A stretch of DNA of 32,000 nucleotides from Synechococcus sp. A15-28 (GCF_014280175.1 NZ_CP047931.1:870001-902000), one strand, 5' to 3'. Numbered from the stretch's first letter, positions 129 to 22,374 are shown. Made by a program: numbers and translations. The notes: generated by a model not told the origin, from the sequence alone.

Positions 129-131
129 GCC

Positions 132-1929: not shown

Positions 1930-2850
1930 ATGGCGCGTCCTGCGCTTTTGGTCAAGGGTCTGGCGGTCGCCCTGGGCGTTGTCTCGGGTTGTTCAGTCGC
2001 GGCGCAGGCGGCCCAGCCAAGCGTTGTGGCTGTGGATGGAACCCTGTGTGACATCACCCGAACGCTGGTGGGAGCGGCGGCGAAGGTCACCTGCCTGATC
2101 CCCCCGGGTGGTGATCCCCACGGCTACCGCCTCAAGCCCAGCGACCGGCAGGCCATCGCAACGTCGGCAGCGGTGGTTCACATCGGCTTTGGTCTCACCC
2201 CTGCAGCCAATGAGATCACCAGTCCTGGATCTGTCGTGGCCGTTGGCGAACAGGTATTGCCGAATTACAAGGGCAACGACCCCCATGTCTGGCATGACCC
2301 AGCCAACTCGGCCGCCATGGTGTCCGCACTGAGCACTGCTCTGATTCCTGTTCTGCCCGCATCGGAAACAGAAGCTCTAAAAGCTCGCGCGACGGCAGCC
2401 ATTGCTGTGTTCAACGACCTCGGCCGTTGGGGAGCCATTCAGTTTGAAACGCTGTCTCAACCGCATCGGGTGATCGTCACCGATCACAAGACCTATAGCC
2501 ACCTGGCCGATCGCTACGGGGTGGATGAAATTGCCATGCTTGATAGCTACACCACTGGGGGTGTGCTGCGTCCCTCCAGCCTGCGCAGGATCAGCAAGGA
2601 GATCAAAACTTCAGGCGCCAAGGTGATTTTCACGCCATCGATTCCTCCCAACAAAACGCTGCGCAGGATCAGTAAGTCAACCGGATTGCCGATTGCGCCC
2701 ACACCACTGTTTGGTGAGGGAACAGCTGCCGGAGAAACAGCGATCTCCACGGCGGCGATCAACATCTGCACGATGGTGCAAGGGCAGGGCGGGACCTGTG
2801 ATAAGGCCTCTGCTGAGGCCCTGAATGATCGTTGGCAGGCCATTCGTTGA
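1930..2850 (+). CDS. znuA: Periplasmic metal (Zn/Mn) ABC substrate-binding lipoprotein, TroA/ZnuA family
   Basis: ATG at 1930 gives a lipoprotein signal MARPALLVKGLAVALGVVSGC (lipobox VSGC). Cluster A-I SBP motifs are present (GGDPHGY, NDPHVWHDP, VTDHKTYSHL). The ORF-track start at 1861 would run through the operator, so 1930 is preferred. No His-rich loop is visible in this protein. Confidence 0.85.
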   Translation: MARPALLVKGLAVALGVVSGCSVAAQAAQPSVVAVDGTLCDITRTLVGAAAKVTCLIPPGGDPHGYRLKPSDRQAIATSAAVVHIGFGLTPAANEITSPGSVVAVGEQVLPNYKGNDPHVWHDPANSAAMVSALSTALIPVLPASETEALKARATAAIAVFNDLGRWGAIQFETLSQPHRVIVTDHKTYSHLADRYGVDEIAMLDSYTTGGVLRPSSLRRISKEIKTSGAKVIFTPSIPPNKTLRRISKSTGLPIAPTPLFGEGTAAGETAISTAAINICTMVQGQGGTCDKASAEALNDRWQAIR

Positions 2851-2855
2851 TGCCT

Positions 2856-2894
2856 GCTTGACGTTCAGACGTCCAAGCATCCTCAATCTTTTTT
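2856..2894 (+). terminator. Possible hairpin terminator after znuA
   Basis: GCTTGACGT-TCAG-ACGTCCAAGC imperfect hairpin (one bulged C) at 2856-2878, followed about 10 nt later by a T-run at 2889-2894. The spacing to the T-run is not ideal. Confidence 0.3.
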
Positions 2895-2919
2895 CCTCTC
2901 TCTCAACATTTTTTCTCCC

Positions 2920-9636: not shown

Positions 9637-9791
9637 GTGGTGAGCCAATCCCGTTCTGCGAATCCTGCCGACCAACGCTGGGGTTTCTGGCCGCTGCTGC
9701 CACTTAGCTCTTAGTTGCAGGAACAGTTCTGAAGGGCTTGTCCCTGAGTTGTCCCAAGTTTTTTGTGCAACTGGGCCGATTTGTGGCCAAG
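9637..9791 (+). repeat. att-like unit A1: degenerate 5' fragment of the DUF4336-like gene + 26-nt core + conserved arm
   Basis: 9660-9701 aligns to 21210-21251. The core CGCTGGGGTTTCTGGCCGCTGCTGCC is identical at 9676-9701, 13515-13540 and 21226-21251. After the core it continues ACTTAGCT...GTCCCTGAGTTGTCCC...TTTTTTGTGCAACTGG, which matches 13541-13613 with about 10 mismatches in about 73 nt by eye. Confidence 0.85.
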
Positions 9792-9872: not shown

Positions 9873-10054
9873 ATCCCTGCCTTGATCCATTCTACCTCTG
9901 AATCACTGCATCGATAGTGAACGTTGTTGCTGGTAAGTAAGAATCCTGGAGATCAATGCTGATGTTTCTTGGCGTTGCTACTAATTAATTGTATTCACTA
10001 ATAGACAGCTTGAGATTCTTGTGCCTGATGTGTTTCTTTCGTTCTGTGTGCCTG
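9873..10054 (+). repeat. att-like unit A2: strongly decayed, AT-enriched copy of gene upstream region + 5' end + arm
   Basis: TCCCTGCCTTGATCCATTCTACCTCTGAATCACTGCATCGATAGTGAACGTTGTTGCTGG... aligns with 21141-21200 (ACCCTGACCTGATCCATTCCTCTGCAGAATCGCTGCATTGATGGTGAGCGTGGTGGCTGG...). GAATCCTGGAGATCAATGCTGATGTTTCTTGGCGTTGCT aligns with GAATCCTGCGGATCAGCGCTGGGGTTTCTGGCCGCTGCT. The following ACTAATTA...TCTTGTGCCTGATGTGTTTC...TGTGTGCCTG is a degenerate arm. Confidence 0.65.
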
Positions 10055-10327
10055 TTTAATTCATGATGAAGCTCGACAGGATGGCCTTATATGAGTTTAC
10101 GACTCTCTTGAGCTAGCAAAGAAATTAATGGTTGCACAGTAAATTCTGCTTTTCTTAGGCTCAAGTTGATATTTGGGATTCAAATTAATTATGTCTTTCA
10201 GACTTCCAACTATCTGTGGATCTTTCAATAAATTGCAGGCTCGGCTTTGCGGGCAGCCAGTGGCTTCGGCAAAGCAGTCACTACCACCCTCGTTTCTTCT
10301 AGCTTTGTTGCAGGAAAGGTTCTACAC

Positions 10328-11044
10328 ATGTCTTCTGGCTGGACCTCGATGCAACGTGATCGGCAGCCCGAAGTCATGGACCAGCCGGGGCTCGATCCAG
10401 CCGAGCACGACCGAGCCCTTCAAGGTCTTCGTCGTATCAACGGAATCAGTCGCTGTGTGCCAGGGCTGTTTCGTCACGTAGAGGCGCTCGCAGGTGAGAG
10501 TCCAGCCACTCAGCTGAGCGTGCTTGAGCTGGCTTGCGGAGGTGGCGATACGGCGATTGAGCTTGCTGCGCTTGCCCGTAGACGCGATTTGGATGTATTG
10601 GTTCAAGCCTGCGATCTGAATCCTGAAGCGGTGCGTCTCGCCCGCCGCAATGTGGCCAGATCAGACAGCAACGTTGGTGTGTTTGTTGCTGATGCTTTGG
10701 ACCCGTCTGAATCCAAACAATTTGACGTGGTGTACTGCACCCTTTTTGTTCACCATCTCGATCCACCCGATGTGGTGCGCCTACTCAAAGGGATGACAGC
10801 TAGGGCTCGTCGACTTGTGATTGTCGATGATCTAATTCGCAGCCGTCTTGGGTATTCCTTGGCTTGGATGGGTACACGACTGCTGAGTCGATCCTGGGTG
10901 GTTCATCACGATGGTCCACTGTCGGTGAAGGGAGCTTTTACTCCTTCAGAGATCCTGGACCTCGCCTCTCAAGCTGGATTGCACGATTGTGTCTTGGAAC
11001 GGACCTGGCCCGAGCGCTACCGGCTCTGCTGGAGACCCCACTGA
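10328..11044 (+). CDS. Class I SAM-dependent methyltransferase
   Basis: SAM motif I VLELACGGGD and an acidic loop after beta-2 (ACDLN). ATG at 10328 is preferred over the ORF-track start at 10247. The next gene starts 2 nt after its stop. Confidence 0.8.
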   Translation: MSSGWTSMQRDRQPEVMDQPGLDPAEHDRALQGLRRINGISRCVPGLFRHVEALAGESPATQLSVLELACGGGDTAIELAALARRRDLDVLVQACDLNPEAVRLARRNVARSDSNVGVFVADALDPSESKQFDVVYCTLFVHHLDPPDVVRLLKGMTARARRLVIVDDLIRSRLGYSLAWMGTRLLSRSWVVHHDGPLSVKGAFTPSEILDLASQAGLHDCVLERTWPERYRLCWRPH

Positions 11045-11045
11045 C

Positions 11046-12191
11046 ATGCAAAGCAATTGGGATGTAATCGTGATAGGGGCAGGAGTTGCCGGAGGCTTGG
11101 CAGCCTTCGATTGTGCAAATCGCGGCCTGCGAGTTCTGCTCGTCGAAAAACGGTCCTTCCCTCGCTGGAAGGTGTGTGGTTGCTGCTTTAACGCCAATGC
11201 CTTGGCAGCTCTGACTGCCACAGGCCTCCCGAACTTCTTTGATGATCAGGGTGCCGTGCCCCTCGATCAACTTCGTCTTGGTTGGGGTGGCAAGTCGCTC
11301 AAGCTTGAGTTGCCAGGCGGTTGGGCACTTTCGCGGGAGCGCTTCGATCAGGCTTTGGTCAACGCGGCTGAGGCTGCTGGTGCAACAGTGCGCTTTCAAA
11401 CCGGTGCCGTGCTTGAGGAGATCACTCCCGATGGGCGAATGGTGCGATTACGACCGCCGGGTGATGCTCCCATTGAACGGATCAGGGCCCGTGTGGTTCT
11501 CGTTGCAGCCGGACTGCAGCACCAGGTGATGTCCCCCTCCCATGCGGCCAGCTCGAGGAGCACCCCGGAATCGAGGCTTGGGGCAGGCTGCCTCATCAAT
11601 GATGACGACGGCTCCTACGAGTCAGGGGCGATTCATATGGCCATTGGCCAGCGTGGCTATGTCGGCTTGGTTCGACGTGAGGACTGTGCTCTCAACCTGG
11701 CGGCCGCTTTCGACCGCGCTGTGGTCAAGTCGTCTGGCGGTGTGGCGCGTGCGGCACAACTTGTTCTGACTCAAGCCGGCTTCACTTTGCCTCGAAGATT
11801 GGAGTCGTCTCGTTGGCAATTAACTCCTGCGCTCACCCGTCGTGCTGGTTTGTTCGCTGGGGATCGCTTTTTGTTGCTTGGCGACGCGACCGGTTATGTG
11901 GAACCGTTTACCGGTGAGGGTATGGCGTGGGCTCTCGCCGCTGGGGCGGCGGTTGCTCCATTTGTGGAGGAGGCTCAGGGTGAATGGTCAGCGGATCTCG
12001 AGCGTCGCTGGCAAAGGAGGTTGGTGGATCTGACGATCAGCCGTCAACGGGTTTGCAGTGTGTTGTCGACGTTGTTACGACAACCGCTCACCACAAATGT
12101 GTTGTTCAACCTTGGGTGCCAATGGCCTGCGATCCCGCAGCGCATTATTCGCAGCCTCAACCGGGTATCTCCTCTGATGGCGAGTTCCTAA
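11046..12191 (+). CDS. FAD-dependent oxidoreductase/hydroxylase (geranylgeranyl-reductase / UbiH-like family)
   Basis: ATG at 11046 gives MQSNWDVIVIGAGVAGGLAAFDCANRGLRVLLVEKR (GxGxxG plus acidic end of beta-2). A later GDATGYVEPFTGEGM motif (GD-x6-P-x-x-G-x-G) is typical of flavoprotein hydroxylases. Confidence 0.8.
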   Translation: MQSNWDVIVIGAGVAGGLAAFDCANRGLRVLLVEKRSFPRWKVCGCCFNANALAALTATGLPNFFDDQGAVPLDQLRLGWGGKSLKLELPGGWALSRERFDQALVNAAEAAGATVRFQTGAVLEEITPDGRMVRLRPPGDAPIERIRARVVLVAAGLQHQVMSPSHAASSRSTPESRLGAGCLINDDDGSYESGAIHMAIGQRGYVGLVRREDCALNLAAAFDRAVVKSSGGVARAAQLVLTQAGFTLPRRLESSRWQLTPALTRRAGLFAGDRFLLLGDATGYVEPFTGEGMAWALAAGAAVAPFVEEAQGEWSADLERRWQRRLVDLTISRQRVCSVLSTLLRQPLTTNVLFNLGCQWPAIPQRIIRSLNRVSPLMASS

Positions 12192-12194
12192 ACC

Positions 12195-13283
12195 ATGCCT
12201 CTCATCCTTCATGGCATTGGTACGGCGGTGCCATCTCGGCGACTGAGCCAGGCAGATGCCGTGCAGGTGGCACATCGCATTAATGCCGAAACCCCTGAGC
12301 AGGTAAGGCTGATGACACGCATCTATCAGAAAACCAAGGTGCTCAGCCGTGGAAGTGTGCTGCTGGAGAAGGATGGAGACGATGGCGCGATCCAGGAGCG
12401 TCTCAGTTTCTACGGCGAAGAAAGCCCTGGTACCGCCGAACGGATGCAGGCGTTTGAGGATCATGCCGGTGAGCTGGCTCTTGAGGCCGCTGCAAAGGCG
12501 CTAAGCGATAGCGATATCTCAGCCACGGCGATCACGCATCTCGTCACTGTCAGTTGCACCGGTTTTCAGTCACCAGGTGTTGACCTTTTCTTGATTGAAA
12601 AGCTTGATCTATCGCCGAGTGTTCAGCGAACCCATATCGGATTCATGGGATGCCACGCTGCGCTGAATGGCTTGCGTGTTGCCCACGCCTTTGCGGAGAT
12701 GGATCCCAAGGCTGTTGTTCTGCTGTGCGCTGTAGAGCTTTGCAGCCTCCATATGGCTTATGGCTGGCACCCAGAGCAGGTTGTTGCCAACGCTTTGTTT
12801 GCCGATGGGGCGGCTGCCGTTGTCGCCTCCGTCAATCCTGTCCCTACCCATCAGACCTTGGCGTTGCGACGCAGTGGCTCGATGGTGATTCCAAACAGCT
12901 CAGATCTGATGCACTGGGAGATTGGCGACCATGGTTTTGCGATGGGCTTGTCGCCCCTTGTTCCGGAAACGGTTGGCGCTGCCTTGTTGCCCTGGTTGCG
13001 AGATTGGCTCAAAGAGCAGGCCATTGATCTTGAGGCGGTGACGAGCTGGGCTGTTCATCCAGGGGGCCCCAAGATTCTCTCGACCTGTGCCGAGGTTTTG
13101 TCGCTGGACCCAGGCCTACTGCACGAGTCCAGAGGCATACTTCAGGATCACGGCAACATGTCATCCGCAACGATTCTGTTCATCCTTGAACGGTTGAGGC
13201 GGCGGGAATGTTCCGGTCCTTGTCTTGCACTTGCCTTTGGCCCTGGGCTGAGTGCTGAGGTAGCACTTTTTGATTTTCAATAA
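12195..13283 (+). CDS. Type III polyketide synthase (chalcone/stilbene synthase superfamily)
   Basis: Catalytic Cys in VSCTGFQSPG, His in WAVHPGGPKIL and Asn in HGNMSSATILF. 362 aa. It starts 3 nt after the oxidoreductase stop. Confidence 0.9.
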   Translation: MPLILHGIGTAVPSRRLSQADAVQVAHRINAETPEQVRLMTRIYQKTKVLSRGSVLLEKDGDDGAIQERLSFYGEESPGTAERMQAFEDHAGELALEAAAKALSDSDISATAITHLVTVSCTGFQSPGVDLFLIEKLDLSPSVQRTHIGFMGCHAALNGLRVAHAFAEMDPKAVVLLCAVELCSLHMAYGWHPEQVVANALFADGAAAVVASVNPVPTHQTLALRRSGSMVIPNSSDLMHWEIGDHGFAMGLSPLVPETVGAALLPWLRDWLKEQAIDLEAVTSWAVHPGGPKILSTCAEVLSLDPGLLHESRGILQDHGNMSSATILFILERLRRRECSGPCLALAFGPGLSAEVALFDFQ

Positions 13284-13452
13284 CAGTCAATCTTCGTTTT
13301 GCCTGTTTCACTGCCTGAGGAATTAATACCGCATCTGAACATCTCTGTCTGATCAGATGATGTTGCTCGGCGATGTCACACCCGGGTAACCCTAAGGCGT
13401 CAGTGGCGTAAATCTTTTCAATGATTTTGTGCTGCCTTGCCCCTTTCCTTCA

Positions 13453-13632
13453 GCAGAATCACTGCATTGATGGGGAGCATGGTGGCCGGAGCTGGGGTGA
13501 ATCCTGCAGATCAGCGCTGGGGTTTCTGGCCGCTGCTGCCACTTAGCTATCAGTTGCGGCAACAGGTCTGAGAGGTTTGTCCCTGAGTTGTCCCTCGTTT
13601 TTTGTGCAACTGGTGCTGATGTTGTGCAACTG
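13453..13632 (+). repeat. att-like unit B: well-preserved copy of gene upstream region + first 24 codons + core + conserved arm
   Basis: 13453-13540 aligns with 21164-21251 with about 6 mismatches in 88 nt. It diverges exactly after ...CTGCTGCC into the arm shared with unit A1. The arm contains a direct repeat of TGTGCAACTG (13603-13612 and 13623-13632). Confidence 0.9.
13470..13571 (+). pseudogene. Truncated 5' fragment of the DUF4336-like gene
   Basis: It translates MGSMVAGAGVNPADQRWGFWPLLP (compare MVSVVAGAGVNPADQRWGFWPLLP at 21181), then reads into arm sequence and stops at 13569-13571. Confidence 0.8.
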
Positions 13633-13707
13633 AGGCCTTTGTGGTTTTTGAAGCTGCCTTGTCAATCGTTTCCGATTGATTGGCTCTGATCAGTTGAGTC
13701 CCAGGTT

Positions 13708-15015
13708 CTAAGACCCCAGGATTGCTGTGCATTCCAGGCGTTCTTGGCAGGCATCACGGCGTTGTAAACGCAGATTGATCACTTGGGCGAGATAACGAGC
13801 ATCGTCGCTGACGCCGCAGAAGCGCCCAGACCCCCAGGTGTGCAGCCAAGGCAAGCCAATGAAATACAGCCCAGCGCTTTGGGTAACGCCGCGATCATGG
13901 GCCGGTAAACCACTCCCATCAAAAACGGGCGCCTCAATCCAGCTGAAGTTACTTCGGTAACCCGTGCACCAGATCACTGCGGCGAGCGGCTGTGAGCTCA
14001 GATCAATTCCTGGATCTTCGATGGGAGACGGCTGCCAACAGGGGGAATACGCCGGTTCGACTGGTGCATCGATCTCTTCCTGTTCGATCCAGCTGTCAAT
14101 GCTGGTGCGGATGCGGCAGTACACCGCATCGGCTTGATCAAGATTGTTGGCCAGGTCATCTGCGAAACCAACGTGTTCGCGGGAGAGGGTCAAGAGTCGG
14201 CCATGCAAATGCATGCCTTCCATCGCCCGTCGACGCAGATCAATCTCACGACCGCCGTCTCGGCCAGTGAGGTAGTGATTGGTCTTGGCTCGGACCGAGC
14301 GGGGATCCGCGTGATCGCTGATCGGCATGGCGTAGTAGCCCATGCGATCCAACCAATCCACAACGTCTTTGCCGCGATAGCGGCGTGGAGATCGTGGCGC
14401 TCGACCCACGCTCAGATGCACGGAACGACCTGCCAGGTGGAGATCTTCAGCGATCTGACTGCCGGATTGGCCATTGCCGACGACCAGCACTGGACCATCG
14501 GGGAGTGCCTCGGGATTGCGGTAGGACCGAGCATCCAGTTGCTGCACAGATGCTGGTAGGCGTTCGGCGTATGGATGACGTCGGGGGATGTGATAGCCCC
14601 CAGTGGCAACGATGACGTGTTCGGCCTCAATGACTCCCTCACTGGTGTCGAGGCGATACCCGTTCACAATGGGCTTCAACCGCGAGACGGCCACGCCCTC
14701 GCGAAGGTCGGCATTGACATGCTGAGCGAAGCGCTGGAGATAGTCCACAATCGACGACTTGCCCATGAAGCCTTCGGGCTGATCACCGTTGTAGGGAAAG
14801 TCGGGCAGACGGCATTGCCAGTTCGGTGTGACGAGGCAGAAGGAATCCCAGCGCTGTTGGTCCCAGGCGTACGCCACACGATTCTTCTCAAGAACGAGGG
14901 GTCGTATGCCTTGTTGCTGCAAGGCATAGGCAGCAGAAAGACCCGCCTGACCAGCACCAATGACCACTGCCGAACGTCGCTGGATTGACGTGTTGATTTG
15001 CGCGACCACTTGCAA
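13708..15015 (-). CDS. Flavin-dependent monooxygenase/oxidoreductase, MSMEG_0569-like (Nit1C cluster member)
   Basis: Two dinucleotide-binding motifs (VVIGAGQAGLSAA and VVGNGQSGSQIA), as in FMO/class B-like flavoproteins. TTG start. It is divergent from the rest of the cluster. Confidence 0.85.
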   Translation of the reverse strand: MQVVAQINTSIQRRSAVVIGAGQAGLSAAYALQQQGIRPLVLEKNRVAYAWDQQRWDSFCLVTPNWQCRLPDFPYNGDQPEGFMGKSSIVDYLQRFAQHVNADLREGVAVSRLKPIVNGYRLDTSEGVIEAEHVIVATGGYHIPRRHPYAERLPASVQQLDARSYRNPEALPDGPVLVVGNGQSGSQIAEDLHLAGRSVHLSVGRAPRSPRRYRGKDVVDWLDRMGYYAMPISDHADPRSVRAKTNHYLTGRDGGREIDLRRRAMEGMHLHGRLLTLSREHVGFADDLANNLDQADAVYCRIRTSIDSWIEQEEIDAPVEPAYSPCWQPSPIEDPGIDLSSQPLAAVIWCTGYRSNFSWIEAPVFDGSGLPAHDRGVTQSAGLYFIGLPWLHTWGSGRFCGVSDDARYLAQVINLRLQRRDACQERLECTAILGS

Positions 15016-15188
15016 CGTCGACTTGCAAAAAACCTTTTAAAGGTATTGCTCGCTAAACGAACGATGCTGTAGTGAAAAGCACGGAATCGTCAATTGAGTG
15101 ATCTGCTGAATTCGTTGATTTGGTTGCAATAGGCACATCGCTGATCGCCGCAGAAGAGTCACGATTGAATAGCTTATAAAAAATTTAC

Positions 15189-15671
15189 ATGCCTGCCGTA
15201 GATCGTCCCGCCAATCAGCCTGGCGACTTCCTGGTTGACTACGAGGAAAAGGTTTTTCCTGATGTGAAAGCCGAGCCTGGTGAAAAGGCTCTTGTCACAT
15301 TTCATACCGTCGCTTTCGAGGGCTCGATTGGCCTGGTGAATTTGCTTCAAGCCAGTCGGCTGATCAACAAGGGCTTCGAAACCTCCGTTCTGCTCTATGG
15401 TCCAGGCGTGACATTGGGCGTGATGCGCGGCTTCCCTAAGCTTGGTGATGCGGCATTTGATGGTCACCTGAATTTCAATGCACGCCTGCAAAAATTCATG
15501 GATCAAGGAGGGAAAGTGTATGCCTGTCGCTTTGCTTTGCAGGCCTTGTATGGCCACGGTGAAAAAGCGTTGATGCCTGGAATCACTCCTGTGAATCCAC
15601 TTGATGTTCTCGATATTGTCTTGATGCACCGGAAGGAAGGCGCCTTCATTCTTGACACCTGGACGCTCTGA
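15189..15671 (+). CDS. MSMEG_0572/Sll0783-like protein (DsrE-like fold; Nit1C 'hypothetical 1')
   Basis: 160-aa protein immediately upstream of the nitrilase. Its sequence ([20 protein letters not shown]...VLLYGPGV...KVYACRFAL) fits the DsrE/DsrF-like small proteins that head Nit1C clusters. Confidence 0.7.
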
Positions 15672-15693
15672 TTCTTTCCGGAGGCTCTCCACT

Positions 15694-16692
15694 GTGACCA
15701 TAGTCAAAGTTGCTGCCGCGCAGATCCGTCCCGTCCTGTTCAGCCTGGACGGATCCCTGCAAAGAGTGCTGGATGCCATTGCCGAAGCCGCGGCTCAAGG
15801 CGTGGAATTGATCGTTTTTCCTGAAACGTTTCTGCCCTATTACCCCTATTTCTCGTTTGTTGAACCTCCGGTCTTGATGGGGAGATCCCATCTGGAGTTG
15901 TATGAGCAGGCTGTGGTGGTTCCTGGCCCTGTCACCGATGCCGTTGCGGCTGCTGCCCGTCAGCACGGCATGCAGGTTCTGTTGGGCGTCAACGAACGTG
16001 ATGGCGGAACGCTTTACAACACCCAGTTGTTGTTTAACAGCTGTGGAGAACTTGTTCTGAAGCGGCGAAAAATCACGCCGACTTACCACGAGCGGATGGT
16101 CTGGGGCCAAGGGGACGGCTCAGGTCTCAAGGTGGTGCAGACGCCTTTGGCTCGTATTGGCGCTTTGGCCTGCTGGGAGCACTACAACCCCCTAGCCCGT
16201 TACGCCTTGATGGCCCAGGGGGAGGAGATCCACTGCGCTCAGTTCCCGGGCTCATTGGTGGGCCCGATCTTCTCGGAACAGACCGCCGTCACCATGCGCC
16301 ATCACGCTCTTGAGGCCGGGTGTTTCGTGATTTGTTCCACCGGTTGGTTGCATCCCGATGACTATGCATCGATCACGTCTGAGTCGGGTCTTCACAAGGC
16401 GTTTCAAGGGGGGTGTCACACCGCTGTGATCAGCCCTGAGGGCCGTTATCTGGCAGGTCCTTTGCCGGATGGAGAGGGGTTGGCGATCGCCGATCTCGAT
16501 CTTGCCCTGATTACCAAGCGCAAACGGATGATGGACAGCGTCGGGCATTACAGCCGCCCAGAACTGCTGTCGTTGCAGATCAACAGTTCTCCTGCGGTTC
16601 CCGTTCAAGACATTTCGACTGCATCGGTTCCATTGGATCCGGCCACAGCTCCCGATGCCCTGTCATCGATGGAGGCCTTGAACCATGTCTGA
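15694..16692 (+). CDS. Nitrilase (Nit6803/Sll0784-type, branch 1 nitrilase)
   Basis: Glu-Lys-Cys triad contexts VFPETF, KRRKITP and LACWEH. GTG at 15694 is preceded by GGAGG at 15679-15683 and is preferred over the ORF-track start at 15652, which overlaps the previous gene. Confidence 0.9.
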
Positions 16693-17773
16693 GCTTGGTC
16701 GCCTGGTAACTGAATTGCAGGTGCATGGCGTGCGGGTTGACCCTGTGAAGGGCAATCCGGGACGACGGGGAGGTGCAGGTCCCTCCGACCACCGTGCCTT
16801 GGATCTCGATGGCACCACCGTGATGGTGCCCGTCTACAACGATGCCTCCGCTGGGTCTCCCTACAAGTTGGCATCCTCCGGTGCTGCTCTTGCCATTGAG
16901 GGACCCGAGCAGCATTGCACTGCTGAGATCACAACACCACGTGAGCCAGCGTTTTACGGCTTGAGCACAGCCGATGGAATCTCCTACCGATCGATTGCCT
17001 TGCTGCACAGCAAGGATGTATTGGCCACAACGTTGCTGCAGACCTGCATTCGTTTTCGGGATCGATCCCAGTCGTGCCAGTTTTGCGCGATTGAACAGTC
17101 GATCGAGGACGGGGCCTTGGTGCGCAAATCGCCTGAGCAGGTGGCGGAAGTGGCGGCAGCGGCTGTCCGACTGGACGGGGTCAAGCAACTGGTGATGACC
17201 ACCGGAACACCCAACAGTGACGATCGCGGAGCCCGTCTGATGGCTGAAACCGCGGAAGCCGTCAAGCGTCGGGTGAATCTACCGATCCAGGGCCAATGTG
17301 AACCTCCGGAAGATCCGCGCTGGTACCAGCGCATGAAGGACGCTGGAATTGACAGTCTCGGCATGCATCTGGAGGTGGTGGAGCCGGATGTGCGGCGTCG
17401 GATCCTTCCCGGGAAATCGGAGCTCAGTCTTGAGCGTTACTACGAGGCCTTCGCGGATGCCGTTGCGGTGTTCGGTCGCGGTGAAGTATCCACGTATCTG
17501 CTGGCCGGCCTGGGTGACAGCAAGGAGGCCTTGCTCGACTGCTGCCTACGGTTGATTGAACTCGGGGTGTACCCCTTTGTGGTGCCCTTTGTGCCGATCT
17601 CCGGAACACCCTTGGAGAGCCATCCATCACCGGACAGCTCCTTCATGGTTGATGTGTATCAGGGTGTTGCCGCGATGTTGAAGGCGGGGGACCTTCGATC
17701 CGAGCGGATGTCCGCCGGTTGTGCCAAATGCGGGGCTTGCTCCGCACTCTCATTGTTCGAGCAAGTGTCGTAG
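16685..17773 (+). CDS. Radical SAM protein, MSMEG_0568-like (Nit1C member)
   Basis: The only N-terminal Cys cluster is [14 protein letters not shown] (C-x9-C-x2-C), followed by a TIM-barrel-like core (VMTTGTP..., GMHLEVV). C-terminal CAKCGAC motif. It overlaps the nitrilase stop by 8 nt. Confidence 0.8.
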
Positions 17774-17775
17774 TC

Positions 17776-18444
17776 ATGGTTTCGTGTCTTGATCCCAGCA
17801 GCTGCGGCATTGGCCGCAGCATCAGTTCCGCGCCCCACTTATTCACGCCCTCGGTGCGCGCTGGCATTGGTATCGATGCCGATGATTTCCGTCTGTCTCC
17901 CACCGCGAGTTCCAATCGTTTCACCTTTCATCTTCTGCGTGCCGACGCGCCGCTGATCCAGGGGTATTGGTCGTTGCGGCGCAACATCTTCTGCAGCGAG
18001 CAGCATGTGTTTGAAGCGTCTGATTGTGATGATCTCGACGCGATCGCCTACCCCATTGCGGCGGTGCATCACAGTTCAGAGCCAGCGCATGACGATGGCG
18101 TTGAAACCGATGTAGTTGGCGTGGTGCGGATTGTGGAAACAGAGCCGCGACTTTGGTATGGCGGTCGCCTCGGCGTGCATTCCGATTTCCGCCGTCATAA
18201 CCAGATTGGCAAGGGGTTGATCTGGAAGGCTGTCACCACTGCCAATGGCTGGGGATGTGACCGTTTCCTGGCCACGGTGCAGATTCAGAACGTCCGCTTT
18301 TTCCGCCGCTTGCACTGGACCTCGATCGATCAACTTGAGATTCGGGGCATACCCCATCACCTGATGGAAGCGGATCTCAACTACTACCTGCCCTCATGTG
18401 AGCAACGACCGTTCGCCTCGCATCACCTGTCAACTGCGGCGTGA
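17776..18444 (+). CDS. GNAT family N-acetyltransferase, MSMEG_0567/Sll0786-like (Nit1C member)
   Basis: ATG at 17776 lies 2 nt after the radical SAM stop. Acetyl-CoA motif A-like RRHNQIGKGL. The upstream part of ORF 17719..18444 overlaps the previous gene and was discarded. Confidence 0.8.
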   Translation: MVSCLDPSSCGIGRSISSAPHLFTPSVRAGIGIDADDFRLSPTASSNRFTFHLLRADAPLIQGYWSLRRNIFCSEQHVFEASDCDDLDAIAYPIAAVHHSSEPAHDDGVETDVVGVVRIVETEPRLWYGGRLGVHSDFRRHNQIGKGLIWKAVTTANGWGCDRFLATVQIQNVRFFRRLHWTSIDQLEIRGIPHHLMEADLNYYLPSCEQRPFASHHLSTAA

Positions 18445-19418
18445 ATAACGTGGGCCTTGTGAACGCCTTGCGCAGGACCAGTGGTCTGTTGGCGAAGCGC
18501 GATATTCGCTCGGCCGCTGCCACCTTTTACCATCAGCCCTTCCCGCAGCTGGGTTTGGCCGGGATGCTGGGTGATGACGCTGCTGTGCTGCCTGCGCAGA
18601 GCGGTCAACTGTTGTTGGCCTGTGAGGGGATGAATCCAGAGCTCGTTGAAGAGGACCCCTGGTTTGCAGGTTGGAGTGGGGTGCTGGTCAATCTCAGTGA
18701 CATCGCGGCTATGGGGGGGCGACCGCTGGCGCTTGTGAACAGCGTGTGGAGCGGCCATGTGGAGGGGATGAGCAGCCTTCTGGATGGGATGCGTTTTGCG
18801 TGTGATCGCTTCGGTGTCCCCATGGTTGGTGGCCACTCCAACCAGCAGAGCTTTTATCAGGCGCTCTCGGTGTCTGTTCTCGGTGTCGCGGAGGGTCCCG
18901 TCCTGTCCGCTCGCGCAGCACGTTCTGGCGATGAGCTGTGGATGCTGGTGAACAAAACAGGAGGCTTCTATCGCCACTACCCCTTCTGGGATGCTGCGAC
19001 CCATGCCCCGCCTGAGCGTCTTCGTGCGCAACTTGCCTTAATGCCCACGCTGGCCGCTGAACGGCTGGTGCACGCCGCCAAGGACATCAGCATGGGAGGC
19101 ATCACCGGCACCGCTGTGATGTTTGCCGAGGCGTGTGGTCATCAGTTAATCCTTGACCTGGATGCCGTGGAACGACCTGAAGACATCCGCGACGAAGCTT
19201 GGCTGACCTGCTTCCCGAGCTTCGGATATCTGCTGGCTGTCGCCCCTTCGCGTACTGCAGCCTTGACGCAATTGATCTCACGTGATTCCACGTTGATTTG
19301 TTGCCGTGTCGGACACTTTGCCATGGGCGATTGCAGCGTGCTGTTGCAACATTCAGGTGAGACCCATCATTTCTGGGATGGAGGCGATCCGCTCACTGGT
19401 TTTGGCTGTGTTCGATGA
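18441..19418 (+). CDS. AIR synthase-related (PurM/ThiL/HypE-fold) protein, Sll0787-like (Nit1C member)
   Basis: N-terminal GDDAAVL motif and a PurM-like two-domain length (325 aa). The GTG start overlaps the GNAT stop (GTGA). Confidence 0.8.
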   Translation: MNNVGLVNALRRTSGLLAKRDIRSAAATFYHQPFPQLGLAGMLGDDAAVLPAQSGQLLLACEGMNPELVEEDPWFAGWSGVLVNLSDIAAMGGRPLALVNSVWSGHVEGMSSLLDGMRFACDRFGVPMVGGHSNQQSFYQALSVSVLGVAEGPVLSARAARSGDELWMLVNKTGGFYRHYPFWDAATHAPPERLRAQLALMPTLAAERLVHAAKDISMGGITGTAVMFAEACGHQLILDLDAVERPEDIRDEAWLTCFPSFGYLLAVAPSRTAALTQLISRDSTLICCRVGHFAMGDCSVLLQHSGETHHFWDGGDPLTGFGCVR

Positions 19419-19470
19419 AACAGTCATGAGCAATGTTGCCGTGCAGAATCGATGAGTAAAGCAACGATCC

Positions 19471-19752
19471 ATGCCTGAAGTTCGCTTTCAACTGGAGTGG
19501 CCAGACGGGCAATCCAGTACGTTATATTCGCCATCAACGGTGATTCTCGATTATTTCCGACCTGGCGATTCGCTGTTGGTTTCTGAGCTTGAGGCGCGCG
19601 GAGTTGAAGCTCTTCGTGCAGCGTCAGAGCGCGTTCGTGCGAGGTTTGGCTTTGCCTGTACGCGTGCGGACGAAGAAGAATCTCTTCTGCGCCAATGGGT
19701 CTCTCGCTACAGCTCCAATGACACGGTTCATGTGACCAGTCAACTTTCCTGA
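19471..19752 (+). CDS. MSMEG_0570-like small protein (Nit1C 'hypothetical 2')
   Basis: 93-aa ORF in the position and of the size of the second conserved hypothetical protein of Nit1C clusters ([13 protein letters not shown]...). Confidence 0.65.
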
Positions 19753-19778
19753 TTGTCATTTTTACGGATTTCTTTTTT

Positions 19779-20246
19779 ATGTCTGGAAAACCTCCTTTCC
19801 CCCCGTTCACCCTGGAAACGGCTCGCCAGAAAGCGCGCATGGCGGAAAATGCTTGGAACAGTAAGGATCCCGACAAGGTCTCATTGGCTTACACCGAAGA
19901 CAGCGTGTGGAGAAATCGCAGTGAATTCATTCACGGCCGCGCTGAAATCCTCGCTTTTCTACAGCGCAAATGGGCCAAAGAACTGGATTACAAACTGATC
20001 AAAGAAGTCTGGGCCTGTAGCGATAACCGGATTGCTGTGCGCTTTCAGTACGAGTGGCATGACGCCGAGGGCCAGTGGTTCAGAGCCCACGGCAACGAGA
20101 ACTGGGAGTTTGCCGAGAACGGCTTGATGCGCAGACGTGAAGCCAGTATTAATGATGTTCCGATCGCTGAGAGCGACCGCCTGTTCAGCTGGGGGGATGG
20201 TCCGCGTCCGGACGATTTCCCGGGTTTGACGGACCTGGGACTCTGA
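19779..20246 (+). CDS. DUF1348-like NTF2/SnoaL-fold protein
   Basis: 155 aa. [27 protein letters not shown]...[25 protein letters not shown] is characteristic of the DUF1348 NTF2-like family. Confidence 0.7.
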
Positions 20247-20250
20247 ATTG

Positions 20251-21039
20251 ATGGGGCAAGGCCGCTACTCACTGCCGCAGGCAATCACCTCCATCGTGGA
20301 CCTGCGGCTGTTCATGGAACACCACGTGTTCGCGGTGTGGGATTTCATGCTCCTGCTCAAGACCTTGCAGCAGCACCTGGCTCCTTCCGGCGTTCCCTGG
20401 GTGCCACCAACCCATCCCGAGATTGCTGGCCTGGTGAACAGCTTGGTAGCGGAAGAGGAATGTGATCTTCTGCCTGGCAGCCTTGGGGGACCTCTTCATC
20501 TCTCCCATTTCGGGATTTACAGGCGAGCAATGGTGGAGATCGAGGCGAACACTTCGGTCATCGATGCGGTGTTGGAGTTGACGTCGTGTGGTGATCTCGC
20601 CTCTGCTTTGCACCATCCGGAAATTCCAGCGCCATCGGCTCGTTTCCTACGCACTACCCAGGCGTTGATCGCCTCCGGGGAAGTGCACGCGCTGGCGGCG
20701 GCGTTTGCCTATGGCCGGGAGCTGTTGGTTCCCAATCTGTTTCGCGGGCTGCTCGATCGCCTGACCGTGCTGGAGCTGCCTTGTCCGACTTTGCGCTGGT
20801 ACCTCGAGCGCCACATCGTTCTGGATGGCGACAGCCATGGGCCGTTGGCGGAAACGATGGTGCTCACCCTGGCCGGCAACGACCCTGCGGCGCATCAGAC
20901 GGTGCAGACCGTGAGGAGGCAGGTGCTTGCTGAGCGTTCTGCGTTCTGGGATGCGATTGAGAACCAGCTTCGGGACAGGTCTCAGACCAATCGATCCGGT
21001 GGCGAGCATTCACAGATGCTCTCCTCTGTTCTGGTCTGA
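20251..21039 (+). CDS. DUF3050-like protein (heme-oxygenase-like helical fold)
   Basis: HHVFAVWDFMLLLKTLQ near the N-terminus is typical of DUF3050. ATG at 20251 (TTG at 20248 in the ORF track). It starts 2-5 nt after the previous stop. Confidence 0.65.
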   Translation: MGQGRYSLPQAITSIVDLRLFMEHHVFAVWDFMLLLKTLQQHLAPSGVPWVPPTHPEIAGLVNSLVAEEECDLLPGSLGGPLHLSHFGIYRRAMVEIEANTSVIDAVLELTSCGDLASALHHPEIPAPSARFLRTTQALIASGEVHALAAAFAYGRELLVPNLFRGLLDRLTVLELPCPTLRWYLERHIVLDGDSHGPLAETMVLTLAGNDPAAHQTVQTVRRQVLAERSAFWDAIENQLRDRSQTNRSGGEHSQMLSSVLV

Positions 21040-21180
21040 CCTAACCCACACCGCATTGGCACAGGCGGCTTGTTTGGTGTTTTGGAGTGAGTTTGTGTCG
21101 TGTTGGCTGAGCTGATTGCCCCATCTGGTTTCCGGTTTTGACCCTGACCTGATCCATTCCTCTGCAGAATCGCTGCATTG

Positions 21181-22374
21181 ATGGTGAGCGTGGTGGCTGG
21201 AGCTGGTGTGAATCCTGCGGATCAGCGCTGGGGTTTCTGGCCGCTGCTGCCGCTCTATCCCTATGGCCGCCGCCACACGGTGTTCAGTGAGTTGATCCCT
21301 GGCCAGCTCTGGAGTCTGGAGCAGCTGCAGGGGGTGTATTACGTGGCCGTTCCGGTGCGGCTCACCGTTGCCAAGGTGCCCGGTGGCTTGATGTTGGTGA
21401 ACCCACTGCCGCCCACCGGTGAGGTTCGCCAAGCCATTGCCGGGCTGGAACAGCAGCATGGGCCCGTGCGCACGATCGTGCTGCCCACCGCCTCTGGTCT
21501 GGAGCACAAGCTGCCCCTCGGCCCCCTGGCCCGCGCCTTCCCGGGTGCAGAAATTTGGGTGTGTCCGGGTCAGTGGAGTTTTCCGGTGCAGTTGCCTCTG
21601 GCCTGGTTGGGCGTTCCGGCACGCCGCACCAAGGTCTTGTTCGACGATGGCGTCCCCCATGGCGATGTTTGTGAGTGGTTGTCGTTGGGACCCCTCGACC
21701 TTGGTGTCGGTCGTTTCCAGGAGATCTCCTGTTTTCATCGTCCGTCAGGCGCTCTGCTGGTCACCGACGCCCTTGTGGGCATCAGTGTTGAGCCGCCTTC
21801 GCTGTTTGATCTCGACCCCACGCCTCTGTTGTTCCACGCCCGCGAGCGGGGTGATCAGCCTTTGCACGACACGCCCGAGGCGCGTCGACGTGGTTGGGCG
21901 CGGCTGGTGCTGTTTGCCTCCTACCTGCGGCCGGAACCGTTGGAGGTGCCAACCCTCAAGGAGGTGTTTCGCCATGCCTTTCGCCCCGGTCTGCGATCGG
22001 CCAAAGCCCACTTCGGGCTCTATCCCTTTCGGTGGAAGCCGGGTTGGGAGGCCGCCGCTGCTGAGTTGATGAGGGAAGCGGAGCCCAAAATTCAGGTGGC
22101 GCCGGTGTTGGAGCGGTTGGTGTTACCCCGTGCCAAGAAATCTCTGCTCGATTGGTTGGAGCAGCTGGGTCAATGGAGCGATCTGCGCTGGCTGGTGTCA
22201 GCCCACTACAGCGCTCCCATCGGTTTCACGACAGGAACGTTGGCTTCACTTGTTCGGGATCTGACCGAACGCCCCTGGGCACCCAGCACCAGCAACTGGG
22301 AGTTTCTTGGATCGATTGATCAACGCTTGCTGGATCTCGGCGTAGTGCCTGAGCAACCTCGTCTCAGAAGTTGA
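21181..22374 (+). CDS. DUF4336-like protein (metallo-beta-lactamase-like fold); target gene of the island integrations
   Basis: About 397 aa with sequence conserved in cyanobacteria and plastid-bearing eukaryotes (WGFWPLLPLYPYG..., VTDALV). Its upstream region and first ~24 codons are the sequence reiterated at 9637, 9873 and 13453. Confidence 0.75.
   Translation: MVSVVAGAGVNPADQRWGFWPLLPLYPYGRRHTVFSELIPGQLWSLEQLQGVYYVAVPVRLTVAKVPGGLMLVNPLPPTGEVRQAIAGLEQQHGPVRTIVLPTASGLEHKLPLGPLARAFPGAEIWVCPGQWSFPVQLPLAWLGVPARRTKVLFDDGVPHGDVCEWLSLGPLDLGVGRFQEISCFHRPSGALLVTDALVGISVEPPSLFDLDPTPLLFHARERGDQPLHDTPEARRRGWARLVLFASYLRPEPLEVPTLKEVFRHAFRPGLRSAKAHFGLYPFRWKPGWEAAAAELMREAEPKIQVAPVLERLVLPRAKKSLLDWLEQLGQWSDLRWLVSAHYSAPIGFTTGTLASLVRDLTERPWAPSTSNWEFLGSIDQRLLDLGVVPEQPRLRS

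What the first reader, a model, noticed from the sequence alone, without database searches (positions are those of the whole stretch)
13708..19752. Complete seven-gene Nit1C nitrilase cluster on a horizontally acquired module; product and chemistry unknown
All seven members of the conserved Nit1C cluster, defined by comparative genomics of nitrilases (Podar et al. 2005), are present. They are the MSMEG_0569-like flavin monooxygenase (divergent), the MSMEG_0572/Sll0783-like DsrE-fold protein, a nitrilase with an intact Glu-Lys-Cys triad, a radical SAM enzyme, a GNAT, an AIR-synthase-like ATP-grasping enzyme and the MSMEG_0570-like small protein. The plus-strand genes are translationally coupled (8-nt overlap, 2-nt gap, 4-nt overlap). 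The cluster has been linked physiologically to nitrogen starvation (Synechocystis, Mycobacterium smegmatis naming) and to cyanide assimilation in pseudomonads. As far as I know, however, the substrate, intermediates and product of the radical SAM / GNAT / PurM-like / nitrilase / monooxygenase set are not established. An enzyme set of this kind suggests synthesis or salvage of a small nitrile- or amidine-containing metabolite. Its location on a mobile-looking module in an oligotrophic marine cyanobacterium suggests a niche-specific nitrogen or cyanide trait.
Basis: partly seen in the sequence, partly recalled or inferred. Interest (0 to 1): 0.85.

Follow-up and report, generated by a model that had tools for sequence, protein, structure and literature searches.

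The report
Known Nit1C nitrilase operon on island cassette
This is an intact copy of the Nit1C nitrilase gene cluster, already described in marine Synechococcus; it sits with two extra genes on a 7.6-kb insertable cassette, and its chemistry is still unknown.

Summary
All seven Nit1C genes lie at 13708-19752, each scores above NCBI's curated family cut-off over nearly the whole profile, and the junctions are as described. The annotation is not new. Podar 2005 described this arrangement, divergent flavoprotein included, in marine Synechococcus WH8102. Doré 2023 mapped the nitHBCDEFG operon across the oceans.

- **Unit size.** The inherited unit has nine genes. A DUF1348/SnoaL-like gene and a DUF3050 gene follow nitG in every close relative and are under purifying selection. 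DUF3050 is the family of HamA, a heme-oxygenase-like iron oxygenase.
- **Mobility.** The nine genes form a 7.6-kb cassette (about 13544-21153) bounded by a ~100-bp direct repeat of the 5' end of a DUF4336 gene. A 96%-identical relative lacks the cassette at exactly this point.
- **Regulation.** The divergent promoter holds two conserved NtcA-like boxes.

NitB has a DsrE-like predicted fold, an invariant cysteine and almost no amino-acid change. No paper in the searchable library defines the pathway.

Most likely function: a nitrogen-stress-induced scavenging pathway that ends in ammonia release by the nitrilase. A biosynthetic or redox role remains a serious rival.

Verdict: already known, modest interest.

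The parts
13442..13543 (+). Left direct repeat: a truncated duplicate of the promoter-proximal region and first ~25 codons of the DUF4336 gene (att-like boundary).
   Evidence: the repeat finder family D2: 13450-13543 against 21161-21254, 91% identical. Relative L087 positions 349-450 align to both copies. Translation gives MGSMVAGAGVNPADQRWGFWPLLPL, then diverges.
13544..13639 (+). Conserved ~95-bp cassette-end element, shared with the left end of the neighbouring type III PKS cassette (9705-9790).
   Evidence: the repeat finder family D1: 9660-9774 against 13499-13613, 89%. nhmmer finds it upstream of nitH in L007, L008 and L009, and three times in L001.
13708..15015 (-). nitH: MSMEG_0569-family flavin-dependent monooxygenase with two dinucleotide-binding motifs, transcribed divergently.
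   Evidence: TIGR04046, 640.5 bits. Pyr_redox_3/FMO-like. Nearest solved structures are type II flavin monooxygenases 4usr and 4a9w, N-terminal half only.
15069..15082 (.). NtcA-like box 1 (GTAGTGAAAAGCAC). A TACCTT -10-like hexamer lies 23 nt away on the nitH side.
   Evidence: Conserved in the intergenic alignment A2. It is a perfect GTA-N8-TAC in L008. Sequence read. The function is inferred.
15123..15136 (.). NtcA-like box 2 (GTTGCAATAGGCAC), upstream of nitB.
   Evidence: The invariant intergenic columns across 12 picocyanobacterial loci (Synechococcus 5.1, WH5701, Prochlorococcus) include the GT and AC of GT-N10-AC. The function is inferred.
15189..15671 (+). nitB: Sll0783/MSMEG_0572 family, DsrE/YchN-like predicted fold, invariant Cys113, extreme sequence conservation.
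   Evidence: TIGR04044. Alignment A1. AF2 model and Foldseek. 100% amino-acid identity against 48% third-position identity to KORDI-49.
15694..16692 (+). nitC: Nit6803-family branch-1 nitrilase. GTG start at 15694; the longest ORF starts at 15652.
   Evidence: TIGR04048, 580.3 bits. 3WUY E=2.6e-148, with FPETF / RRKITP / ACWEH conserved. Homologous gene calls of 332 aa.
16685..17773 (+). nitD: MSMEG_0568-family radical SAM enzyme with a variant cluster motif C121-x9-C131-x2-C134, a C-terminal CxxCxxC motif and an N-terminal RRGGAGPSD motif.
   Evidence: TIGR04043, 562.8 bits; NF045502 variant_rSAM, 178.8 bits. Conservation over 77 homologues. Weak similarity to HydE.
17776..18444 (+). nitE: MSMEG_0567/Sll0786-family GNAT acyltransferase.
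   Evidence: TIGR04045, 216.9 bits. Acetyltransf_1.
18441..19418 (+). nitF: sll0787-family PurM/AIR-synthase-like ATP-dependent enzyme with a conserved C-terminal PLTGF motif.
   Evidence: TIGR04049, 436.6 bits. AIRS and AIRS_C domains. PDB relatives ThiL, PurL, SelD and PurM. Conservation.
19471..19752 (+). nitG: MSMEG_0570-family small protein with invariant Cys63. A confident model has no solved structural relative.
   Evidence: TIGR04042. Alignment A3. AF2 pLDDT 93. Best Foldseek PDB match E=0.72.
19779..20246 (+). DUF1348 / SnoaL-like (NTF2-fold) gene, co-inherited with the cluster.
   Evidence: PF07080, E=2.7e-66. Follows nitG in L001-L008, L015, L022, L026 and L028. Purifying selection.
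20248..21039 (+). DUF3050 / HamA-type heme-oxygenase-like iron oxygenase gene, co-inherited with the cluster.
   Evidence: PF11251, E=6.2e-70. PDB 9vwb, E=3.8e-46. Present in L001-L008 and L026. HamA biochemistry from PMC12522199.
21154..21254 (+). Right direct repeat: the native 5' end of the DUF4336 gene.
21178..22374 (+). DUF4336 gene: the core-genome target next to which cassettes accumulate.
   Evidence: PF14234, E=2.2e-117. Contigs of close relatives start or break here.

Best explanation
**What it is (shown).** This is an intact, selectively maintained Nit1C operon of a marine Synechococcus. Its genes are nitH, transcribed divergently, and nitBCDEFG. DUF1348 and a HamA-type DUF3050 oxygenase gene follow nitG with gaps of 26 nt and 1-4 nt. 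The nine genes form a 7.6-kb flexible-genome cassette inserted beside the 5' end of a DUF4336 gene.

**How it most likely works (inferred).** Nitrogen limitation switches the operon on through NtcA acting at two boxes in the divergent promoter. The operon then works as one multi-enzyme nitrogen-scavenging pathway. Its terminal, ammonia-releasing step is hydrolysis of a planar or vinylic nitrile by NitC.

The other enzymes make, capture or process that nitrile, from cyanide or from an unidentified nitrogen compound:
- NitH, and in this lineage DUF3050, oxygenate a heteroatom.
- NitE acylates and NitF activates with ATP. The two are coupled, and they are fused in mycobacteria.
- NitD carries out a radical step.
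- NitB, and perhaps NitG, each with an invariant cysteine, act as a hub or carrier that contacts several partners.
For: **Identity and integrity**
- Seven curated family models are passed.
- The catalytic triad aligns with 3WUY.
- Codon positions 1+2 are more conserved than position 3 in all nine genes.

**Cassette**
- The homology block 13708 to ~21000 is shared with eight marine Synechococcus loci whose flanks are unrelated.
- L087 is 96% identical from 21154 onward and 94% over the PKS 3' end (13093-13543), and it lacks the block. The block is bounded by a ~100-bp repeat.
- In L008 the Nit1C and PKS cassettes are in the opposite order.

**Regulation**
- The invariant intergenic columns across 12 picocyanobacterial loci include the GT-N10-AC of box 2. 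Box 1 is a perfect GTA-N8-TAC in L008.
- No sigma-70-type promoter is found, as expected for an activator-dependent promoter.

**Nitrogen role, from the literature**
- It is induced more than 500-fold by GlnR in M. smegmatis.
- In the ocean it is enriched in warm, low-nitrogen, iron-replete water.
- Neighbouring genes in relatives include an arginase-family gene with Ni-chaperone genes and an ABC transporter, amine oxidases and gamma-glutamyl transpeptidase.

**Hub idea**
- NitB has no amino-acid change where synonymous sites are near saturation.
- NitB has a DsrE-like predicted fold and an invariant Cys113.
- HamA acts on a carrier-tethered substrate.
Against: - Purified Nit1C nitrilases hydrolyse cyanide poorly. 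Even the best nitriles are turned over with low efficiency, and the authors doubt that nitrogen supply is the enzyme's main role.
- A radical SAM enzyme, a GNAT and a PurM-like enzyme look biosynthetic. In 19 loci outside the picocyanobacteria a GT4 glycosyltransferase sits between nitF and nitG.
- The mycobacterial and Synechocystis phenotypes concern peroxide resistance, the NADPH/NADP ratio and PHB accumulation.
- The window holds no exact GTA-N8-TAC, and GT-N10-AC alone is common by chance.
- No substrate, intermediate or carrier adduct is known.
- The NitB model has only medium confidence (pLDDT 67).
Confidence: 0.5

Rival explanations
1. Biosynthetic or redox reading. The cluster builds, and perhaps recycles, a small nitrogen- or sulfur-containing metabolite or cofactor that is glycosylated in other phyla. 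This product would buffer redox state under nitrogen starvation, with the nitrilase acting as a tailoring or maturation step rather than a nutritional one.
For: - The enzyme set is typical of biosynthesis.
- GT4 lies inside the operon in 19 loci from filamentous cyanobacteria, Polyangiaceae and Betaproteobacteria.
- GAF-LuxR ligand-type regulators lie next to the cluster in 12 loci.
- The gpr operon of M. smegmatis confers peroxide resistance and raises NADPH/NADP.
- The nitrilase has poor kinetics, and its authors propose a metabolon.
- NitD's nearest named families act on small molecules or insert sulfur: LipS2, HydE, PylB, HmdB and BioB.
- NitD carries a conserved second CxxCxxC motif.
- NitB has a DsrE-like fold.
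Against: - No product has ever been reported.
- Making a nitrogen-containing product under nitrogen starvation is counter-intuitive.
- The genetic requirement in Pseudomonas is specifically for growth on cyanide as the nitrogen source.
- The picocyanobacterial clusters have no GT4.
Confidence: 0.3
2. Detoxification reading. The cassette protects the cell against cyanide or toxic nitriles released by other plankton, and ammonia is only a by-product.
For: Podar 2005 proposed detoxification of defence compounds. Doré 2023 and the Ace Lake study both leave detoxification open. The patchy presence and absence of a mobile cassette fits a conditionally useful resistance trait.
Against: - The conserved NtcA-like boxes and the control by GlnR and sigma-54 in other phyla point to nitrogen status, not a toxin, as the signal.
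- No efflux or sensor gene lies in the cassette.
Confidence: 0.12
3. Decaying cargo. The cassette is a passenger in a recombination hot spot and is no longer functional in this strain.
For: There is no integrase or transporter in the cassette. It sits in a low-G+C island among small ORFs.
Against: All nine ORFs are full length against their profiles. All show more conservation at codon positions 1+2 than at position 3. All catalytic motifs are present.
Confidence: 0.03

Closest known systems
Nit1C cluster of Synechococcus sp. WH8102 and Synechocystis PCC 6803 (sll0783-sll0787 with the divergent flavoprotein gene); nitHBCDEFG of marine picocyanobacteria (Podar 2005; Doré 2023)
   Same: The same seven families, the same order B-C-D-E-F-G with H divergent, and the same tight junctions. 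NitC aligns with Nit6803 at E=2.6e-148 and NitB is 80% identical to Sll0783.
   Different: There is nothing essential that differs. Here, and in other subcluster 5.1 strains, two more genes (DUF1348 and DUF3050) are part of the conserved block. The papers read here count seven genes and show these two only as neighbours.
nit1C (nitABCDEFGH) of Pseudomonas pseudoalcaligenes CECT5344 and P. fluorescens NCIMB 11764
   Same: The same seven structural families. [quoted passage not shown]
   Different: In Pseudomonas, nitH is co-directional and last, and a sigma-54 regulator, NitA, is present. There is no DUF1348 or DUF3050. Here there is no dedicated regulator, only NtcA-like boxes.
gpr operon MSMEG_0565-0572 of Mycolicibacterium smegmatis
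   Same: The families that give the NCBIfam models their names. Controlled by nitrogen starvation through GlnR.
   Different: The GNAT and PurM-like domains are fused, and an amidase gene is added. The phenotype described is peroxide resistance and a change in NADPH/NADP ratio.
Tandem integrative elements and their remnants in picocyanobacterial genomic islands (tycheposons, Hackl et al.)
   Same: Cargo cassettes for nutrient acquisition are stacked at one site and separated by partial copies of the attachment sequence. They are present or absent between close relatives.
   Different: Here the repeated sequence is the 5' end of a protein-coding gene (DUF4336), not a tRNA. No tRNA, integrase or replication gene is found in the 32-kb window.
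HamA (DUF3050) of the fragin/valdiazen cluster of Burkholderia cenocepacia
   Same: The same Pfam family (PF11251, E=6e-70) and a solved DUF3050 structure at E=4e-46.
   Different: HamA works with an NRPS-like carrier in diazeniumdiolate formation. No such carrier is encoded here. The ligand residues were not mapped.

Membership tests
Nit1C gene cluster | Nit6803-family branch-1 nitrilase (TIGR04048) with the Glu-Lys-Cys triad | tested here: met
   580.3 bits against a cut-off of 502.6. The triad aligns with 3WUY.
Nit1C gene cluster | MSMEG_0572/Sll0783 protein (TIGR04044) immediately upstream of the nitrilase | tested here: met
   272.9 bits against 109.85, profile 1-159/159.
Nit1C gene cluster | MSMEG_0568 radical SAM protein (TIGR04043) | tested here: met
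   562.8 bits against 303.7.
Nit1C gene cluster | MSMEG_0567/Sll0786 GNAT (TIGR04045) followed by the sll0787 AIR-synthase-like protein (TIGR04049) | tested here: met
   216.9 bits against 68.45, and 436.6 bits against 321.3. The two genes overlap by 4 nt.
Nit1C gene cluster | MSMEG_0570 small protein (TIGR04042) and MSMEG_0569 flavin oxidoreductase (TIGR04046) | tested here: met
   110.8 bits against 79.85, and 640.5 bits against 498.35.
Nit1C gene cluster | Cyanobacterial arrangement: B-C-D-E-F-G on one strand, flavoprotein divergent at the start | tested here: met
   Coordinates. The arrangement is described for WH8102 and PCC 6803. The nitH(-)/nitB(+) divergent arrangement is seen in the 41 of 43 picocyanobacterial loci whose contig reaches nitH.
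Nit1C gene cluster | Induction by nitrogen limitation or cyanide | tested here: inconclusive
   Two conserved NtcA-like boxes, but no exact GTA-N8-TAC in the window. There are no expression data.
Nit1C gene cluster | Supports growth on cyanide or nitriles as the nitrogen source | not testable with these tools
   Known only from Pseudomonas genetics.
Radical SAM superfamily (NitD) | Canonical CxxxCxxC cluster motif | tested here: not met
   The conserved motif is C121-x9-C131-x2-C134, at least 98% conserved in 77 homologues. It matches NF045502 'variant_rSAM' at 178.8 bits against 125, and PF04055. NitD is therefore a variant-motif member.
DsrE/YchN-like fold (NitB) | Three-layer alpha/beta fold, with a conserved Cys at a strand-helix junction | tested here: met
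   Seven of the top eight Foldseek PDB matches are DsrE/DsrF/YchN-family proteins (best E=8.4e-5, TM 0.5-0.8) on a model of pLDDT 67. Cys113 is invariant and lies at the end of strand 109-113. Sulfur transfer itself cannot be tested here.
HypE-type PurM-superfamily nitrile-forming enzyme (considered for NitF) | Conserved C-terminal cysteine that carries the carboxamide/thiocyanate | tested here: not met
   The C-terminal Cys of the window protein is not conserved. The conserved motif is PLTGF.
Tycheposon-like integrative element | Integrase and replication module inside the element | tested here: not met
   No recombinase domain in any ORF scanned.
Tycheposon-like integrative element | Flanking partial copies of the attachment sequence, and presence/absence polymorphism | tested here: met
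   The attachment sequence here is the 5' end of a gene, not a tRNA.

The most novel reading that the evidence does not exclude
Nit1C may not be a simple nitrile-catabolic operon. It may be a carrier-based machine.

- NitB, a DsrE-like protein with an invariant Cys113 and essentially frozen in sequence, and NitG, with an invariant Cys63 and no solved structural relative, would carry a thiol or persulfide-linked intermediate.
- NitD would modify that intermediate. Its closest named families include the sulfur-inserting LipS2 and BioB, and it has a second Cys cluster motif.
- NitE/NitF and the oxygenases NitH and DUF3050 would act on it as well.
- Cyanide or another nitrogen unit would be trapped as a covalently bound nitrile or thiocyanate, and NitC would hydrolyse it to ammonia.

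This would reconcile the cyanide genetics, the redox phenotypes and the poor activity of the nitrilase on free nitriles.
Probability: 0.1. Interest if true: 0.75.

Novelty: already known. Interest (0 to 1): 0.3.

Why it matters
Nit1C has been an orphan pathway for twenty years. It occurs in cyanobacteria, proteobacteria, actinobacteria and myxobacteria, is linked to nitrogen stress and cyanide use, and is abundant in nitrogen-poor ocean water. Solving its chemistry would matter for marine nitrogen budgets and for cyanide bioremediation. This window does not make that question more tractable than published genomes already do.

It does add a sharper definition of the unit to express or delete in marine Synechococcus: nine genes, with mapped cassette ends and a candidate NtcA-dependent divergent promoter. 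It also gives a clean example of cassette stacking next to a protein-coding gene rather than a tRNA.

Tried and rejected
- **Exact NtcA consensus.** GTA-N8-TAC has no match in the window. I replaced it with a phylogenetic footprint.
- **tRNA and Rfam scans.** Neither found anything, so there is no tRNA attachment site or known RNA.
- **Promoter and terminator scan.** Nothing above chance.
- **Source genome via the PKS protein.** Exact look-up found nothing on record. The MenB-like flank protein worked instead.
- **PDB sequence searches.** NitB gave only spurious DARPin matches and NitG gave none.
- **NitG fold.** The model is confident but has no PDB match, so no inference can be drawn.
- **NitF as a HypE-like nitrile former.** Rejected, because the C-terminal Cys is not conserved.
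- **Integrase or transposase.** None found in the flanking or island ORFs scanned.
- **Published pathway.** Four literature searches for a paper defining the chemistry found none. The library omits most subscription-journal papers, so absence is not proof.

Full report
**Observation**

The region 13708-19752 contains exactly the seven ORFs described. Against NCBIfam, each passes the curated cut-off of its Nit1C family model and is matched almost end to end: nitH TIGR04046 (640.5 bits), nitB TIGR04044 (272.9), nitC TIGR04048 (580.3), nitD TIGR04043 (562.8), nitE TIGR04045 (216.9), nitF TIGR04049 (436.6) and nitG TIGR04042 (110.8).

Pfam agrees for the five genes with known domains. With the start codons used in homologous gene calls, nitC/nitD overlap by 8 nt, nitD/nitE have a 2-nt gap and nitE/nitF overlap by 4 nt.

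NitC aligns with the crystallised Nit6803 nitrilase (3WUY) at E=2.6e-148, and the Glu, Lys and Cys motifs are kept. There are no frameshifts. The one wording error is 'ATP-grasping': NitF belongs to the PurM/AIR-synthase superfamily.

An exact-sequence look-up of NitB returned marine Synechococcus chromosomes and metagenome contigs. In all six places shown, nitG is followed by a DUF1348/SnoaL-like gene and a DUF3050 gene (Pfam now calls it HamA_HO-like).

BLASTN shows that the block shared with these loci runs from 13708 to about 21000, at 73-91% identity, and that the flanks are unrelated. A scan of 185,579 species genomes gave 80 more loci, and a tblastn table of them shows the following:
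- The seven core genes are present wherever the contig is long enough.
- DUF1348 accompanies the cluster in all marine subcluster 5.1 loci that reach that far, in several Cyanobium/Regnicoccus loci, and sporadically elsewhere.
- DUF3050 accompanies it only in marine Synechococcus 5.1 and, at 39% identity, in Ca. Regnicoccus frigidus.
- The Prochlorococcus clusters have neither gene.

All nine genes are more conserved at codon positions 1+2 than at position 3 in comparisons with two relatives. The two extra genes are therefore maintained, not decaying.

**Mobility is shown directly**

A look-up with a core flank protein found contig L087. It is 96% identical to the window from 21154 onward and 94% identical over 13093-13543. 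In L087 the 3' end of the type III PKS gene is followed directly by the DUF4336 gene. L087 positions 349-450 align both to window 13442-13543 and to 21154-21254.

Relative to L087, the window therefore carries a 7.6-kb insertion (about 13544-21153). It is bounded by a ~100-bp direct repeat, 91% identical between copies. The repeat is the promoter-proximal region plus the first ~25 codons of DUF4336. The left copy translates to MGSMVAGAGVNPADQRWGFWPLLPL and then diverges from the native protein.

Further partial copies lie at 9660-9704 and 9875-9960. A ~95-bp element follows the repeat at the left end of both the PKS cassette (9705-9790) and the Nit1C cassette (13544-13639). The same element occurs upstream of nitH in L007-L009 and three times in L001.

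In the single-cell genome L008 the two cassettes are in the opposite order. G+C is 0.52-0.60 in the cassette against 0.63-0.69 in the core flanks.

No tRNA, Rfam family or recombinase domain was found in the window. The pattern resembles the tandem integrations separated by partial attachment sites described for picocyanobacterial islands. Here, however, the attachment sequence is the start of a protein-coding gene, and the enzyme responsible is unknown.

**Regulation**

The 173-bp region between nitH and nitB has no sigma-70-type promoter and no exact GTA-N8-TAC. I aligned it across 12 picocyanobacterial loci.

Apart from the nitB start codon and two isolated upstream columns, the invariant columns all fall in box 2 (15123-15136) and its immediate flanks. 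They include the GT and AC of a GT-N10-AC motif. Box 2 reads GTG-N8-TAC in Prochlorococcus and WH5701.

A second box at 15069-15082 is conserved in subcluster 5.1 and is a perfect GTA-N8-TAC in L008. Box 1 lies 23 nt from a TACCTT hexamer on the nitH side.

GTA-N8-TAC placed about 22 nt upstream of a -10 box is the established NtcA-activated promoter layout (general knowledge). NtcA control is therefore an inference from conservation and spacing, not a demonstrated fact.

**The proteins**

- **NitB.** It has no sequence relative in the PDB. A medium-confidence model (pLDDT 67, pTM 0.67) gives DsrE/DsrF/YchN-family proteins as seven of its eight best Foldseek matches (best E=8.4e-5); the eighth is a designed protein cage. 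Cys113 is invariant and sits at the end of a strand just before a helix. NitB is extraordinarily constrained. It is 100% identical in protein to the KORDI-49 copy while third codon positions are only 48% identical, and it is still about 82% identical in Myxococcota and Proteobacteria.
- **NitG.** It gives a confident model (pLDDT 93) with no significant PDB match. Cys63 is invariant.
- **NitD.** It lacks the canonical CxxxCxxC motif. The conserved motif is C121-x9-C131-x2-C134. There is also a conserved C-terminal CxxCxxC and an N-terminal RRGGAGPSD motif. It matches NCBI's 'variant_rSAM' model, and more weakly LipS2, PylB, HmdB, BioB and HydE.
- **NitF.** It resembles ThiL, PurL, SelD and PurM. 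A HypE-like C-terminal cysteine is not conserved; the conserved motif is PLTGF.
- **NitH.** It is closest to small class B flavin monooxygenases and to the ArsO family.
- **DUF3050.** It matches a solved DUF3050 structure at E=3.8e-46. The characterised family member HamA is a mono-iron, 2-oxoglutarate-binding, heme-oxygenase-like oxygenase. It acts on carrier-tethered valine during diazeniumdiolate formation.

**Other phyla**

In 19 loci outside the picocyanobacteria, a ~380-400-aa ORF sits between nitF and nitG. Eight of the ten such ORFs I scanned are GT4 glycosyltransferases. A GAF-LuxR regulator is adjacent in 12 loci. Podar 2005 had noted the glycosyltransferase in Betaproteobacteria.

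**What is already known**

- **Podar et al. 2005.** They defined Nit1C and listed Synechococcus WH8102 and Synechocystis PCC 6803 with the divergent flavoprotein gene. They assigned ORF1 to a YchN-like fold and suggested detoxification.
[quoted passage not shown] The purified enzyme prefers planar vinylic nitriles, handles cyanide poorly and is inefficient. Its authors state that the biological function remains obscure and raise the idea of a metabolon.
- **M. smegmatis.** The operon is induced more than 500-fold by GlnR. It confers peroxide resistance and a higher NADPH/NADP ratio.
- **Doré et al. 2023.** They reported nitHBCDEFG as a seven-gene co-occurring cluster in marine Synechococcus and Prochlorococcus, enriched in warm, iron-replete, low-nitrogen water.
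- **The Ace Lake study.** It drew the cluster with the ntf2 and DUF3050 neighbours.

No paper in the searchable library defines the substrate or product. That library omits most subscription-journal papers.

**Mechanism**

Shown: the gene content, its integrity, the cassette structure and the conservation patterns.

Inferred, at about 0.5: a nitrogen-stress-induced (NtcA) scavenging pathway whose last step is ammonia release by NitC. The remaining enzymes would generate or process the true nitrile, and NitB would be a multi-partner hub.

The main rival, at about 0.3, is biosynthesis of a small metabolite related to redox state. It is supported by the enzyme types, by GT4 in other phyla and by the mycobacterial phenotype. 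Detoxification (about 0.12) and decaying cargo (about 0.03) are less likely.

**Verdict**

However, the finding restates published knowledge, and this copy does not make the open chemical question easier to test.

The nine-gene extent, the mapped cassette ends at a DUF4336 hot spot, the conserved NtcA-like boxes and the near-absence of amino-acid change in NitB are useful refinements of modest novelty.

Noticed in passing
window 10247-13283: A second cassette lies immediately to the left. It encodes a SAM methyltransferase, an FAD-dependent oxidoreductase and a type III polyketide synthase. It is bounded by the same DUF4336-derived repeats. In L008 it lies on the other side of the Nit1C cassette. 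From memory, this gene trio resembles alkylresorcinol or hierridin-type phenolic-lipid clusters; I did not test that.
   Followed up: partly
window 9660-9704, 9875-9960, 13442-13543, 21154-21254; also 9705-9790 and 13544-13639: There are four full or partial copies of the DUF4336 5' end, plus a ~95-bp conserved element at cassette left ends. The same element occurs in L001 (three copies), L007, L008 and L009. This looks like a cassette array at a protein-coding attachment site with no recombinase nearby. No paper in the library links DUF4336 to such a site.
   Followed up: partly
window 15189-15671 (nitB): nitB shows no amino-acid difference from the copies in L001-L007 although third codon positions are only 48-68% identical in the four copies measured (L001, L002, L003, L006). 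The exact protein is indexed in 1985 blocks of the public collection. This degree of constraint is unusual for a 160-aa protein of unknown function.
   Followed up: partly
window 19471-19752 (nitG): The AlphaFold model is high-confidence (pLDDT 93) with no significant structural match in the PDB (best E=0.72). Cys63 and the YSPS and WPDG motifs are invariant.
   Followed up: yes
window 16685-17773 (nitD): The radical SAM cluster motif is the variant C-x9-C-x2-C rather than C-x3-C-x2-C. There is also a conserved C-terminal CxxCxxC and a near-invariant N-terminal RRGGAGPSD motif of unknown role.
   Followed up: partly
L055 13969-15087, L059 10147-11379, L075 14555-15730, L077 10703-11980, L085 13935-15329 and others: In 19 Nit1C loci outside the picocyanobacteria (filamentous cyanobacteria, Polyangiaceae, Betaproteobacteria) a ~380-400-aa ORF lies between nitF and nitG. 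Eight of the ten scanned are GT4 glycosyltransferases. It is absent from the window.
   Followed up: partly
L066 19177-20478 and 11 other loci: A GAF-domain LuxR-type regulator recurs next to Nit1C outside the picocyanobacteria. The window has no dedicated regulator.
   Followed up: no
L068 11504 onward: In one uncultured cyanobacterial chromosome the DUF1348 homologue lies between nitC and nitD, inside the operon. This strengthens the functional link between DUF1348 and Nit1C.
   Followed up: no
L003 and L006 (KORDI-49) 1-4032 and 16250-19700; L002, L004, L005 15851-18673: In other strains the Nit1C block lies next to other likely nitrogen-scavenging genes. These include an arginase-family gene with hypA/cobW-like genes and an NMT1-type ABC transporter, a gamma-glutamyl transpeptidase, and a flavin amine oxidase.
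   Followed up: no
window 2920-4023: An ORF in the left flank has a weak, sub-threshold match to the cyanophage outer-membrane-protein-like beta-barrel domain (E=1.4e-4, 22.5 bits against a cut-off of 27). It lies next to znuA- and znuB-like zinc-transport genes.
   Followed up: no
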